Assembly: GCA_000004985.1 (NCBI GenBank)
Contig: GG739160.1
DNA: 4,229 nt
Source: Naegleria gruberi
Lineage: Eukaryota
Reading direction: 5' to 3' (one strand)
Made by a program: the position numbers and the translations under genes. This document shows, in pieces, positions 1 to 3,201 of the stretch. The notes under the pieces are model-generated. The model searched no databases. It saw only the letters and a list, made by a program, of their open reading frames with translations, and was not told the DNA's origin. Position 1 is the stretch's first letter, and the number at the start of each line of letters is the position of its first letter.

Positions 1-960
1 GAATGTCTTCATATTCTGCATTGATCATTTCCCAGCCTTTCTGAACTATTACAAGATTATGCTTGAATAATTCCATTGCAATTTTGTCTTTGGAGTTATT
101 CTCATAAGTTTTGGAACGCTTGGCTATTTCTTCTTGAATCATTTCTACTTTCTTTGATGAAATCTTCTTTTTGGCAAGTGATTGACTGGCATTGGCAGTT
201 GTTTTTTCATGTTCTTTAGGAGAAAAAGCAGCTCTATACGAATCAAAAGTTGGATCCAAACGTTTTCTCATTTCATACGAGCCAGAAAAAATTATTTCAT
301 TATCAACTTGATGCATGAGAATCTTTTTGAGATAAACGAGAGTGAAAATAGTGCACATCTTGTCCTGAGTTTCGGTTAATCTTGTTCCCTCAATAACGTC
401 TCCCTCAATTTCATGAAATTGAACTGATAATTGCTTTCTCAATATGAAATTGCTGAGAAGATTACAGACGAAACAAAGCTTGTGTTGAGGAGAAAGATTA
501 TCGTACATATTTCTGAAAACAGTGTTATGTGAAAAGAAGCCACTATATTCAACAAAGACTATTCACCAAGATGATGATTAACAACCTTATTCGAAACAAG
601 TTTAAACTTACCTTCCTTTTCAGGATGAGAAACATTCAAATCTACAAAACGCTCCCAATCTCTAATAATTCGTGGAATCAACAATTTGAATAATTCACAA
701 TACTCTTCATACATTGGCAATCTCTCCAAAGGAAATGCTATAACTTTACTACACAATTCGTCCCAATCATACATGCCAGTCCTTTCGTATTTGGTGTTGA
801 GTAATTGCTCAGCCTTTGGAAGTGATTCACCCATTCCTGTGAGCCAATCCTCTAAAACTTGTTTCTTTTGACTCTCACTCATATTGGCAAAGGCTTTGAG
901 AATGTATTTAACGCAACAAATTGATTTTGAAAACTTACCCTTGAGGAATTGTGTTGACAT
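1..960 (-). CDS. Hypothetical soluble protein, 5' end in window, 3' end beyond left edge. Proposed two-exon model: exon 1 = 960..612, intron = 611..559, exon 2 = 558..1. N-terminus MSTQFLKGKFSKSICCVKYILKAF...; after the junction ...HPEKE|VFVEYSGFFSHNTVFRNMYDNLSPQHKLCFV...AEYEDI...
   Basis: ATG at 960-958 sits in an AAAAAAAATG context. The 133-aa ORF (559..960) ends at a TAG at 561-559. A second minus-strand frame is open with no stop from 562 down to position 1 (187 codons, internal Met at 508-506). It is absent from the ORF track because it has no stop and runs off the edge; I translated it by hand. The two frames differ by 1 nt and are bridged exactly by a GT-AG interval (see intron feature). 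The composition is K/E/L-rich and looks like real protein. I could not recognise a domain family from the sequence alone. Confidence 0.7.
559..611 (-). other. Putative 53-nt spliceosomal intron on the minus strand. Donor GAAG|GTAAGT at 612/611-606. Acceptor AATAG| at 560-559, where the TAG stop of the unspliced 133-aa ORF is the acceptor itself. Possible branch-like TTAAT about 20 nt upstream of the 3' splice site.
   Basis: Seen directly: the minus-strand sequence reads gaa g|gtaagtttaaacttgtttcgaataaggttgttaatcatcatcttggtgaatag|tc ttt gtt. Removing 53 nt (phase 1) rebuilds the codon G+TC=GTC and lands exactly in the only frame that stays open to the window edge. The alternative explanation is a 1-nt indel error in the assembly near 559-565. 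Confidence 0.5.
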
Positions 961-1124
961 TTTTTTTTGGTTGTTTTTTCAAGAAACTAACTCTCAAAGG
1001 AGGAACATATTGGGCTAGGCTTGTGAGACAATATTGTAAACAAAGCTACTGGAGGCTATTTTTTTCAAAGCCTTTGTTTTTCTAGGTTCATTTCAAAACA
1101 ACTAGTTTAACAAGTTTGGTTGGT

Positions 1125-1135
1125 GGTTCGATTCC
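1125..1135 (+). other. Pol III B-box / tRNA T-arm consensus 11-mer GGTTCGATTCC in intergenic DNA. It could be a tRNA-derived or SINE-like relic, and it is not a foldable tRNA.
   Basis: It is an exact match to GGTTCGANTCC. The chance expectation for a specific 11-mer in an ~8.5-kb two-strand search space is about 0.002. I could not build an acceptor stem or a T stem around it (GGTGG pairs with CCTGG at only 2 bp), and there is no clear A-box (the closest is AGCTACTGGAG near 1045). Confidence 0.2.
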
Positions 1136-1242: not shown

Positions 1243-1577
1243 TTAGTGCCAATTTGGCTTATTACTGTTTTCCCGTCGAGATCTGTGTTGTTCAACAGTT
1301 CTTTCCACTTCCTTTGTGAATGCTCCTTCATGTGTATCCATCCAAAACTGGACAGCTAAATGGATGGACATAATAAGAGGTGAAATGAGTTCCAATCCTC
1401 TCACTTTGAACTTGGCAACTGAGAAAACAACCATTATTAAAACTAAAGAAGCAAACAATGATCCGGCCAATAGTTTGATTAAAATTTCAATGGTACATTC
1501 ATACAGATCTTGTACATCCGTTTTTCTAAATGTTCCTTTTAACTTTTCATGAGCAGTATGAAGAATTGCCATACTAA
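1243..1577 (-). CDS. Possible C-terminal continuation of the membrane protein in a shifted frame, which could equally be a pseudogenised tail: ...VISMAILHTAHEKLKGTFRKTDVQDLYECTIEILIKLLAGSLFASLVLIMVVFSVAKFKVRGLELISPLIMSIHLAVQFWMDTHEGAFTKEVERTVEQHRSRRENSNKPNWH*, with a TAA at 1245-1243.
   Basis: This is a 112-codon open frame (track ORF 1243..1581, GTG start overlapping the upstream TGA) on the same strand. It begins inside the stop codon of the 360-aa ORF. The upstream ORF ends in the middle of a hydrophobic helix (…LVIPLMMLIVAAL*). A 1-nt shift in the gct-gct-ttg-tga run would give a complete 23-residue helix (LVIPLMMLIVAAL-VISMAILHTA), then HEKLKGTFRK, then two more TM helices and a charged tail. 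The open-frame length and the TM periodicity both argue that this is coding. A separate eukaryotic gene starting 6 nt after another gene's stop is implausible. Confidence 0.45.
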
Positions 1578-2842
1578 TCACAAAGCAGCCACTATTAACA
1601 TCATTAGAGGAATTACCAGAGGATTAACAATATTCAAATGATATAATAAATATGAATCTTCACATATCTCTCTGATAATAATAACTAAAAAGAAACAAGC
1701 TAAGGTTGGTATGAAATGGGATTTTTCAAATAGAGAGGGAAATTGACATCTTTTTCTTATTGTTTCTTTGTTACAATTTTCAAATAAATAGTAAATCAGC
1801 CAAAGAAAGGAAGCAAATACTATGTAAAGCATTGAGCCAATCGCATCAAAATAATAAAATAGGTGTTGTTCCCATACACTTAAGCGTTGATTGTAAAGAT
1901 AAAATTTTGTTTTCTTTGTGACCCAGTAAAAAACAATTCCACTCAAAAATATACATCCTATGACAACTCTAATAAAATAGTAAATAAACATTTTTGCTTT
2001 TTGAACCAGTGCACCACATGTAGATGTATGGTTAACAAAATCAATCAGTATACTGGCCCACAATATGATTGTAGAAAATGAAATGCAAGTTATTAATCCT
2101 CCATACGAAATCAAAATGTTATGATTTGGAGGCTGTTCTGTGAAAAATACCCATCCCAAAGATAATAACCCCAATGACACAAACATATTCTTTCCTGTAA
2201 ACGAATTCTTTCGAATTTTGAATAATGGTATCACATTAAAAAACATTTTTTTCACCAGGAATAAAGCCACATAGGAAAAACTCATTTCCCATTCGAAAGT
2301 TTTCTTTTCTTCAGAATTGAAACAACAGCAACAAGTAATTTCTTTGTCTTGATGATTTTGTTCAAGGAAACCTTCATTTTCTTCACCGTCTGATTCACTT
2401 TCTGCCTCTTCAATGTTGTCTGAATTTGAAGTAGTTTGAGAAGTTCCAATATCTTTAAGTTCTATTGATCCACTATTAGATGGTGGTGCATTAGGAATTG
2501 CTAGTGTTATTGTTGATGTGGAAATGGTTTTACCTTCTGAAACTGAAGGATTATTGTTTGAAGAAGGTACATGTTTACGAACCTTTTTCTCTCTTTCATG
2601 TTTACAACATCCAAGGTAGAGTATCAGAATAATTGCACCTATTAATTGAGCAGCAATCACAATAGAATATGGAAAATAAAATAGTTGAATGCTTTCGGCA
2701 GGTTTGTCATTAATTGGATGGCATTCAAAATTTCTACTTGAAACTTCATAACAAACACTAACTGGTTGAGTTCTGTCAAAACATCCTTTGACTTGTTGGA
2801 TAACATCACGATAACTACTGATAGTAATATTCTCAGAAGGGA
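1578..2842 (-). CDS. Main body of a multi-pass membrane protein, with its 5' side interrupted by the assembly gap. Ectodomain tail ...PSENITISSYRDVIQQVKGCFDRTQPVSVCYEVSSRNFECHPINDKPAESIQLFYFPYS. TM1 IVIAAQLIGAIILILYLGCC. Then a ~110-aa acidic Ser/Thr-rich loop (…EEAESESDGEENEG…EITCCCCFNSEEKK…). Then at least 6 hydrophobic helices up to the TGA at 1580-1578.
   Basis: The ORF track lists 1578..2660 (360 aa), but the codon at 2660-2658 is GTG (plus-strand 'cac'), so the track is using alternative start codons. By hand, the same frame stays open for a further 61 codons upstream to the gap edge at 2842, with no ATG, so the 'M' at 2660 is an artefact. There is an N-glycosylation sequon (NIT) and 3 Cys in the ectodomain stub. 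KHEREKKVRK after TM1 follows the positive-inside rule. Helices include MFVSLGLLSLGWVFF, ILISYGGLITCISFSTIILWASILIDFV, MFIYYFIRVVIGCIFLSGIVFYWV, LFYYFDAIGSMLYIVFASFLWLIYYLF, FIPTLACFFLVIII and LVIPLMMLIVAAL. Confidence 0.8.
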
Positions 2843-3061
2843 NNNNNNNNNNNNNNNNNNNNNNNNNNNNNNNNNNNNNNNNNNNNNNNNNNNNNNNNNN
2901 NNNNNNNNNNNNNNNNNNNNNNNNNNNNNNNNNNNNNNNNNNNNNNNNNNNNNNNNNNNNNNNNNNNNNNNNNNNNNNNNNNNNNNNNNNNNNNNNNNNN
3001 NNNNNNNNNNNNNNNNNNNNNNNNNNNNNNNNNNNNNNNNNNNNNNNNNNNNNNNNNNNNN
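2843..3061. other. Assembly gap (219 N) lying inside the ectodomain-coding part of the membrane-protein gene.
   Basis: There is a run of n characters. Coding frames are open on both flanks on the minus strand. Confidence 0.99.
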
Positions 3062-3201
3062 CTACTCTCTTGTACAGTTAATTTTCCATACAGGTCCTTG
3101 ACATCATTTTGCCATGAACGAAGATTACAAGCAAGACAAAATGTTGTGTGAAAACCAAGAAGAAAAATAAGCAGTGCCAACAACAGCATATGTGATGACA
3201 T
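3062..3201 (-). CDS. N-terminal segment (start codon plus signal peptide) of the same membrane-protein gene: MSSHMLLLALLIFLLGFHTTFCLA|CNLRSWQNDVKDLYGKLTVQES..., running into the N gap.
   Basis: ATG at 3201-3199 in a cataaaaATG context. It has a classic n/h/c signal-peptide layout with a predicted cleavage after CLA. It is on the same strand and orientation as the ORF that resumes at 2842, and the gap is only 219 nt of N's. There is a TATAAAAG element 50 nt upstream. The link to the downstream ORF is an inference because the true gap length and frame are unknown. Confidence 0.65.

What the first reader, a model, noticed from the sequence alone, without database searches (positions are those of the whole stretch)
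559..611. Probable 53-nt GTAAGT…TAG intron joining two minus-strand ORFs, where the apparent stop codon of the upstream ORF is the splice acceptor
The 133-aa ORF ends GAA G|GTAAGTTT…GTGAATAG|TC. Splicing out 53 nt (phase 1) continues in-frame into a frame that is open for a further 186 codons to the window edge. An ORF caller would otherwise report a truncated 133-aa protein and miss the larger downstream part. The other two genes here have no obvious introns (CHIP is open across regions that are split in human), so introns appear rare in this genome. That makes this one worth confirming.
Basis: seen in the sequence. Interest (0 to 1): 0.5.

Follow-up and report, generated by a model that had tools for sequence, protein, structure and literature searches.

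The report
Ordinary, already-annotated short Naegleria intron
The 53-base stretch is a genuine but ordinary spliceosomal intron in a Naegleria gruberi gene for a MYND zinc-finger protein, and the public annotation of that genome already removes it at exactly these coordinates.

Summary
On the minus strand, 611..559 reads GTAAGTTT…GTGAATAG (53 nt). Removing it (phase 1, GAA G|GT…AG|TC) joins the 133-aa ORF to a frame that stays open for 186 codons to the window edge.

The window is a 4229-nt Naegleria gruberi scaffold. GenBank model EFC35546.1/XP_002668290.1 maps 100% onto it as exons 960..939, 893..612 and 558..47. A second N. gruberi model (XP_002673825.1) has the same junction.

- **Sequence check:** two independent assemblies of a metagenome run are identical across the site, so there is no hidden 1-nt indel.
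- **Ortholog check:** the only homologue outside N. gruberi found among 1.84 billion representative proteins is N. lovaniensis KAG2389272.1 (521 aa). It aligns to the spliced protein in one HSP (E 2e-70), ungapped across the junction. Its own coding DNA is uninterrupted there.
- **Second intron:** a contig extending past the window shows another intron (52 nt, G|GTAAGT, phase 1) leading to the MYND finger.

No transcript data could be reached. Verdict: a real U2-type intron, already known, of low interest. One mild curiosity is that none of the four intron positions is shared between the two Naegleria orthologues.

The parts
939..960 (-). Exon 1 of the MYND-finger gene (ATG 960..958; MSTQFLK + first base of a split codon).
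   Evidence: P0004 (EFC35546.1) residues 1-7 map here. ORF listing.
894..938 (-). First annotated intron, 45 nt, G|GTAAGTTTTC...CTCAAAG|CC, phase 1. Its length is a multiple of 3 and it has no in-frame stop, so the reading frame cannot confirm it.
   Evidence: P0004 reads MSTQFLK|AFANMSE, skipping these 45 nt. Sequence. Not testable against the orthologue because the N-termini do not align.
612..893 (-). Exon 2 (...AFANMSESQ...NVSHPEKE + G of a split codon).
   Evidence: P0004 residues 8-101 map here at 100%.
559..611 (-). The intron of the finding: 53 nt, phase 1, U2-type GT-AG, 30% GC. It holds an in-frame stop (TAG 561..559) and its length is not a multiple of 3.
   Evidence: the annotation skips exactly these bases. 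(orthologue ungapped across the junction). (identical in two other assemblies).
606..611 (-). 5' splice site GTAAGT, preceded by AAG (AAG|GTAAGTTT). The 9-mer GGTAAGTTT is the same as at the first intron.
   Evidence: Sequence. That it matches the U1 binding consensus is established knowledge.
577..581 (-). Candidate branch site TTAAT (yTnAy), with the branch A at 578, 19 nt upstream of the 3' end of the intron. Inferred only.
   Evidence: Read from the sequence. No experimental or species-consensus support was available.
559..561 (-). 3' splice site TAG. It doubles as the apparent stop codon of the unspliced 133-aa ORF.
1..558 (-). Exon 3 (VFVEYSGFFSHNTVFRNMYDNL...AEYEDI), which runs off the window. 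On contig L001 it continues to a third intron (L001 2137..2188) and a last exon with the MYND finger.

Best explanation
Window 611..559 (minus strand) is a conventional U2-type GT-AG spliceosomal intron in a Naegleria gruberi protein-coding gene. On the extending contig the gene has four exons. It encodes a protein of about 542-557 aa of unknown function that ends in a MYND zinc finger. U1 snRNA would pair with AAG|GTAAGT at 611, a branch adenosine (probably in TTAAT at 581..577) would attack the donor, and the exons would be ligated after TAG at 559. That creates a GTC (Val) codon from G612 + T558 C557. Unspliced RNA would terminate at the TAG and give a 133-aa fragment. Shown here: the sequence, the frame logic, identity in independent assemblies, collinearity with the orthologue, and agreement with the deposited annotation. 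Inferred: the branch site and the actual removal from mRNA.
For: (1) The frames join exactly. (2) Deposited model EFC35546.1/XP_002668290.1, 'predicted protein, partial [Naegleria gruberi]', sits on a contig of 4229 nt. It maps at 100% to exons 960..939 / 893..612 / 558..47. (3) The second N. gruberi model, XP_002673825.1, reads ...SHPEKEVFVEYSGFF... as well. (4) An exhaustive HMMER search of 1.84e9 representatives found one other relative, N. lovaniensis KAG2389272.1 (E 7.7e-32). BLASTP of the spliced 557-aa product against it gives a single HSP, residues 84-539, E 2e-70, with no gap at the junction. The N. lovaniensis DNA is one uninterrupted reading frame over that region (L003 4334..5041). 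(5) The conserved block SHNTV[FY]RNM lies upstream of the first Met of the downstream frame, and there is no in-frame ATG between the acceptor and that block. The downstream ORF therefore cannot start on its own without losing conserved residues. (6) Contig L001 shows a second intron of the same style: 52 nt, CAAG|GTAAGT...TTTCAG, phase 1. It links to an exon with zf-MYND (Pfam E 5.5e-9), and that junction is also ungapped against the orthologue (PAQ|AQWIKEQQ vs FQAKWIKDRQ). (7) Window 520..650 is identical in two assemblies of run ERR1078381. (8) The host genome has introns: 1.7 exons per gene, 33% GC as here (PMC8296547).
Against: No cDNA, EST or RNA-seq read across the junction could be examined. 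The protein collection holds no transcript-derived product spanning it (one search found only the one cluster). The alignment with the orthologue is weak in the ~40 residues immediately around the junction: identity is low from residue 84 to about 125 and strong only from SHNTV onward. The acceptor has a poor pyrimidine tract (CTTGGTGAATAG). The GenBank models are automated predictions, not independent experimental evidence.
Confidence: 0.93

Rival explanations
1. There is no splicing. The 133-aa ORF and the downstream ORF (starting at MYDNL, window 516) are separate, adjacent genes.
For: A prokaryotic gene caller on the metagenome contig reports them as separate products of 133, 285 and 167 aa. 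No transcript evidence is available.
Against: The N. lovaniensis protein covers all three pieces in one chain, encoded without interruption at this site. Conserved residues SHNTVFRN precede the Met. The gap between stop and ATG would be only about 43 nt, whereas the spacers around the neighbouring genes in this window are roughly 280-400 nt. The organism is a eukaryote with canonical introns.
Confidence: 0.02
2. A sequencing or assembly error (1-nt indel) breaks one continuous ORF, and nothing is spliced.
For: The window is a small scaffold with an N-run. It also has a 10-nt indel relative to contig L001 in the neighbouring gene, so local errors or variants do occur.
Against: Window 1..960 is 100% identical to L001. 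Positions 520..650 are identical in L001 and L002, which come from a different sample and different technology. A fused read-through would add about 18 residues where the orthologue alignment needs none. Exact GTAAGT...TAG boundaries would then be a coincidence.
Confidence: 0.02
3. The intron is real but largely retained, so the 133-aa truncated product or an NMD-targeted RNA is the main output (regulated intron retention).
For: Intron retention is reported as the commonest form of alternative splicing across eukaryotes, including N. gruberi (PMC6142364). The acceptor is weak. Retention gives an immediate stop codon.
Against: Nothing here indicates retention. The downstream 440 codons are conserved with N. 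lovaniensis, so the spliced form must be made.
Confidence: 0.03
4. A programmed -1 ribosomal frameshift, rather than splicing, joins the two frames.
For: The two frames differ by -1.
Against: The downstream frame has a TGA at 565..563 and the upstream frame stops at 561..559. The shift would have to occur within about 4 nt (CTT GGT GAA TAG), where there is no X XXY YYZ slippery heptamer (read). Canonical splice signals are present instead.
Confidence: 0.005

Closest known systems
Annotated intron of the N. gruberi gene model EFC35546.1 / XP_002668290.1 (predicted protein, partial)
   Same: It is the same object. The model maps at 100% to this window and omits exactly 611..559.
   Different: Nothing at the intron. 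The model also removes 938..894, and it stops at window 47 instead of running to the scaffold edge.
N. gruberi NAEGRDRAFT_71092 (EFC41081.1 / XP_002673825.1, 492 aa) on a 351,708-nt scaffold
   Same: A near-identical copy, probably the other haplotype. It has the same two junctions, SHPEKE|VFVEY and CFPAQ|AQWIK.
   Different: Three amino-acid differences. The model starts at the internal Met (MYDWDELC), so it lacks the N-terminus. Its DNA could not be fetched.
N. lovaniensis C9374_014672 (KAG2389272.1, MYND-type domain-containing protein, 521 aa)
   Same: The only homologue outside N. gruberi in the library. It is collinear over residues 84-539 and has the same C-terminal MYND finger.
   Different: It has no intron at either N. 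gruberi site that could be compared. Instead it has one 58-nt phase-0 intron (GTATGT...AATAG, L003 5042..5099) at FNPVT|AAFPP, a site that is continuous in N. gruberi.
Short U2-type GT-AG spliceosomal introns of intron-poor protists
   Same: GTAAGT donor, AG acceptor, a yTnAy-like branch candidate about 19 nt upstream, and a short fixed-size class (45-58 nt in the four introns seen here).
   Different: Nothing distinctive was found.

Membership tests
U2-type (major) spliceosomal intron | 5' splice site GT with an extended match to the GTAAGT / U1-pairing consensus | tested here: met
   AAG|GTAAGTTT at 614..604.
U2-type (major) spliceosomal intron | 3' splice site AG | tested here: met
   TAG at 561..559.
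U2-type (major) spliceosomal intron | Branch-point motif (yTnAy) 10-40 nt upstream of the acceptor | tested here: inconclusive
   TTAAT at 581..577, 19 nt from the 3' end, fits the loose motif. Such motifs are common in AT-rich DNA, and no N. gruberi consensus could be obtained (one search found no paper).
U2-type (major) spliceosomal intron | Removal restores a reading frame collinear with homologous proteins, and the intron itself is not coding (stop codon, length not a multiple of 3) | tested here: met
   53 nt with an in-frame TAG. Single ungapped HSP across the junction against the N. lovaniensis orthologue, E 2e-70. The orthologue's DNA is uninterrupted there.
U2-type (major) spliceosomal intron | Absent from mature mRNA (cDNA/RNA-seq junction reads) | not testable with these tools
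   No transcript-derived sequence was found. RNA-seq exists under PRJEB23822 (PMC6142364) but cannot be queried here.
U2-type (major) spliceosomal intron | The host organism splices nuclear pre-mRNA | tested here: met
   The source was identified as N. gruberi, which has 1.7 exons per gene and a mean intron of 203 bp (PMC8296547).
U12-type (minor) intron | Donor [AG]TATCCTT and branch TCCTTAAC | tested here: not met
   The donor is GTAAGTTT and there is no TCCTTAAC in the 53 nt.
Introner-like / transposon-derived intron family | Sequence similarity between intron copies beyond the splice signals | tested here: not met
   Pairwise global alignments of the interiors of the three N. gruberi introns and the N. 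lovaniensis intron score no better than shuffles (fraction of shuffles >= observed 0.11-0.74). Only four introns were compared.
Programmed -1 ribosomal frameshift site | Slippery heptamer X XXY YYZ within the overlap of the two open frames | tested here: not met
   The overlap between TGA 565..563 (downstream frame) and TAG 561..559 (upstream frame) is about 4 nt, and CTTGGTGAATAG has no slippery heptamer.

The most novel reading that the evidence does not exclude
The gene shows complete intron-position turnover within the genus Naegleria. N. gruberi has three introns (45, 53 and 52 nt), all phase 1 and all G|GTAAGT. The two whose sites align to the N. lovaniensis orthologue are absent there; the first lies in the unalignable N-terminus. 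N. lovaniensis has a single phase-0 intron that N. gruberi lacks. If the uniform donor, phase and size of the N. gruberi introns reflected recent lineage-specific gain, this locus could be a small window on how introns are created in a free-living heterolobosean. The direction of change (gain versus loss) cannot be decided without an outgroup. Orthology rests only on this being the sole hit, and the introns show no mutual similarity.
Probability: 0.25. Interest if true: 0.3.

Novelty: already known. Interest (0 to 1): 0.07.

Why it matters
It matters very little beyond quality control. It also illustrates how prokaryotic gene callers run on metagenomes fragment protist genes: here one gene became three products of 133, 285 and 167 aa. 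The only point with some biological content is that the intron positions of this MYND-finger gene differ completely between N. gruberi and N. lovaniensis. That is one data point for intron gain and loss in Heterolobosea.

Tried and rejected
- **Pfam on the two halves and the joined 302-aa product:** nothing significant. Only the full-length product from L001 shows zf-MYND.
- **Word-indexed homologue search with the joined protein:** only the self cluster. The same search with the N. lovaniensis protein returned only itself, so no N. fowleri orthologue was retrieved.
- **Exhaustive search with the joined protein:** It was run with P0001 instead.
- **Two scans of JGI metagenome contigs (single protein, then alignment A1):** no relatives.
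- **Exact look-ups:** P0003, P0004 and the window's 112-aa ORF are not on record.
- **ARAGORN and Rfam (E<=1) on the window and L001:** nothing.
- **Literature:** no paper for PRJEB11402, none combining Naegleria with GTAAGT, and the 2010 Cell genome paper is not held.
- **Introner-like similarity among the introns:** rejected.
- **Synteny between the window and N. lovaniensis locus L003:** not supported. There is no ORF of 100 aa or more resembling the neighbours upstream of the gene. The planned tblastn could not be run because L003 was not in the script folder.

Full report
**Observation**

The window is 33% GC throughout. It carries three eukaryote-style genes:
- the target gene on the minus strand, from 960 to the left edge;
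- a signal-peptide/transmembrane protein gene on the minus strand (3201..1243), interrupted by a 219-N run;
- a TPR (CHIP-like) gene on the plus strand from 3608.

On the minus strand, 611..559 reads GTAAGTTTAAACTTGTTTCGAATAAGGTTGTTAATCATCATCTTGGTGAATAG, 53 nt. The 133-aa ORF that starts at ATG 960 ends at TAG 561..559. Deleting the 53 nt joins ...GAA G to TC..., giving a Val codon. The frame then continues open for 186 codons to position 1.

GT...AG pairs that restore an open frame are not rare: 107 exist under 400 nt. The 611->559 pair is the shortest. It is the only one that combines the AAG|GTAAGT donor with a short intron, and it retains the residues that later proved to be conserved.

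**Where the window comes from**

A homologue search with the joined protein found one cluster. Its members include EFC35546.1/XP_002668290.1, 'predicted protein, partial [Naegleria gruberi]', 272 aa, seen on a contig of 4229 nt, which is the length of this window. That protein maps to the window at 100% identity as three blocks: 960..939, 893..612 and 558..47.

The window is therefore a small N. gruberi scaffold. The deposited annotation already removes exactly 611..559, and also 45 nt at 938..894. A second model in the same cluster is XP_002673825.1 (NAEGRDRAFT_71092, 492 aa), on a 351,708-nt scaffold. It differs by three residues and contains the same junction (...SHPEKE|VFVEYSGFF...). It is probably the other haplotype.

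Published figures for N. gruberi are 41 Mb, 33% GC, 1.7 exons per gene and a mean intron of 203 bp (PMC8296547). These fit the window's composition. They also show that introns are moderately common here rather than rare.

**Independent sequence**

An ENA metagenome contig (L001, 2724 nt, run ERR1078381) and a Logan assembly of the same run (L002) overlap the window at 98.5-98.9% identity. All differences lie in the neighbouring gene and the spacer. Window 1..960 is 100% identical to L001, and 520..650 is identical in both L001 and L002. A hidden 1-nt indel is therefore excluded as far as sequence data can exclude it.

The prokaryotic gene caller used on that contig split the gene into products of 133, 285 and 167 aa.

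**The rest of the gene**

L001 extends past the window edge. At L001 2137..2188 there is a second frame break bridged by GTAAGTCG...TTATTTCAG. This intron is 52 nt, phase 1, and is again preceded by AAG. The last exon carries a MYND zinc finger (Pfam PF01753, E 5.5e-9). The spliced product is 557 aa, or 542 aa if the first 45-nt intron is also removed.

**Comparative test**

An exhaustive HMMER search of 1.84 billion representative proteins with the exon-3 product (P0001) found one relative besides itself. It is N. lovaniensis KAG2389272.1, a 521-aa 'MYND-type domain-containing protein' (E 7.7e-32).
- BLASTP of the spliced N. gruberi protein against it gives a single HSP over residues 84-539 (33% identity, E 2e-70).
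- That HSP runs without a gap through both junctions: NVSHPEKE|VFVEYSGFFSHNTVFRNM against NLYEAEVPPNGARPSLLSHNTVYRNM, and CFPAQ|AQWIKEQQ against EFDFQAKWIKDRQ.
- The block SHNTV[FY]RNM is conserved and lies upstream of the first Met of the downstream frame. That frame therefore cannot be an independent gene starting at that Met.
- In the N. lovaniensis DNA (L003) the corresponding regions are uninterrupted coding sequence: 4334..5041 and 5100..5957 translate exactly to the protein.

The N. lovaniensis gene has its own single intron, 5042..5099 (58 nt, GTATGT...AATAG, phase 0). It lies between FNPVT and AAFPP, a site where N. gruberi is continuous (FDSYR AAFSP). Each species' uninterrupted sequence thus validates the other's intron. 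The two N. gruberi sites that align and the one N. lovaniensis site are each unique to one species. The first N. gruberi intron (938..894) lies in an N-terminal region that does not align, so it cannot be compared.

**Mechanism**

This is a standard U2-type intron:
- donor AAG|GTAAGT;
- a plausible branch site, TTAAT, at 581..577, with the A 19 nt from the 3' end (inferred only);
- acceptor TAG.

It is not U12-type, because there is no ATATCC/GTATCC donor and no TCCTTAAC branch. A -1 frameshift is geometrically excluded: the two frames overlap by only about 4 nt and there is no slippery heptamer. The three N. gruberi introns and the N. lovaniensis intron show no similarity beyond chance, so there is no sign of an introner-like family.

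**What is missing**

There is no transcript evidence. The protein collection holds no transcript-derived product across the junction. Both metagenome scans were empty. RNA-seq for N. gruberi exists (PRJEB23822; PMC6142364) and would settle the matter directly.

**Verdict**

It is already in the public annotation and has no unusual property, so novelty is 'already known' and interest is low. The modest residual interest is the complete lack of shared intron positions between the two Naegleria orthologues. This is compatible with ordinary gain and loss over a large evolutionary distance.

Noticed in passing
The 9-mer GGTAAGTTT is the same as at the 53-nt intron. Its length is a multiple of 3 and it has no in-frame stop. 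Read-through would simply add GKFSKSICCVKYILK, so only RNA data can confirm it. GenBank model EFC35546.1 removes it.
   Followed up: partly
L001 2137..2188 (beyond the window's left edge): A third intron of the gene: 52 nt, CAAG|GTAAGTCG...TTATTTCAG|CT, phase 1. It leads to the exon with the MYND zinc finger. The junction is supported by the N. lovaniensis alignment.
   Followed up: yes
L003 5042..5099 (N. lovaniensis PYSW02000008.1): The orthologue's only intron (58 nt, GTATGT...AATAG, phase 0) sits at a site that is continuous in N. gruberi. The N. gruberi intron sites that can be aligned are continuous in N. lovaniensis, so no intron position is shared.
   Followed up: partly
window 1579..1583 (minus-strand transmembrane-protein gene): The window is 10 nt shorter than metagenome contig L001 (GCTGCTT-----TGT-----GATTAG against GCTGCTTACTTTTATCACAAAATTAG). 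This breaks the reading frame of the neighbouring gene into ORFs 2660..1578 and 1581..1243, whereas L001 reads straight through (..AAYFYHKISMAIL..). It could be an assembly error, a haplotype-specific frameshift or a pseudogene.
   Followed up: no
window 2843..3061: A run of 219 N (assembly gap or masking) lies inside the coding region of the transmembrane-protein gene, between the signal-peptide exon (ATG 3201) and the rest. Frame continuity across it cannot be judged.
   Followed up: no
window ~1105..1135 (spacer between the two minus-strand genes): GGTTGGTGGTTCGATTCCTGGCGC resembles a tRNA T-arm/acceptor end. Neither ARAGORN nor Rfam (E<=1) reports a tRNA or any other RNA here, so it may be a tRNA-derived remnant.
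   Followed up: partly
window 1..47: Deposited partial model EFC35546.1 stops at ...KHNLVI (window 47), although the frame stays open to the edge and both the XP_002673825.1 protein and L001 continue VQKGWEMINAEYEDIPEQ. This is probably a gene-prediction artefact at the scaffold end, since a GT follows at 46.
   Followed up: no
L001 / L002 (ENA ERZ929261, run ERR1078381, project PRJEB11402): A metagenome sample contains a N. gruberi-like amoeba about 98.5-98.9% identical to the reference scaffold. The MYND-finger gene is 100% identical over 960 nt, while the neighbouring gene and the spacer carry all the differences. No paper mentioning the project was found.
   Followed up: no
P0003 (XP_002673825.1) versus the window: The model on the 351,708-nt scaffold starts at the internal Met MYDWDELC, so it lacks the first ~47-62 residues and the first intron. 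It differs from the window copy at three residues (E>K, D>E, F>C). The two deposited models of what is probably one gene are therefore inconsistent at the 5' end.
   Followed up: no
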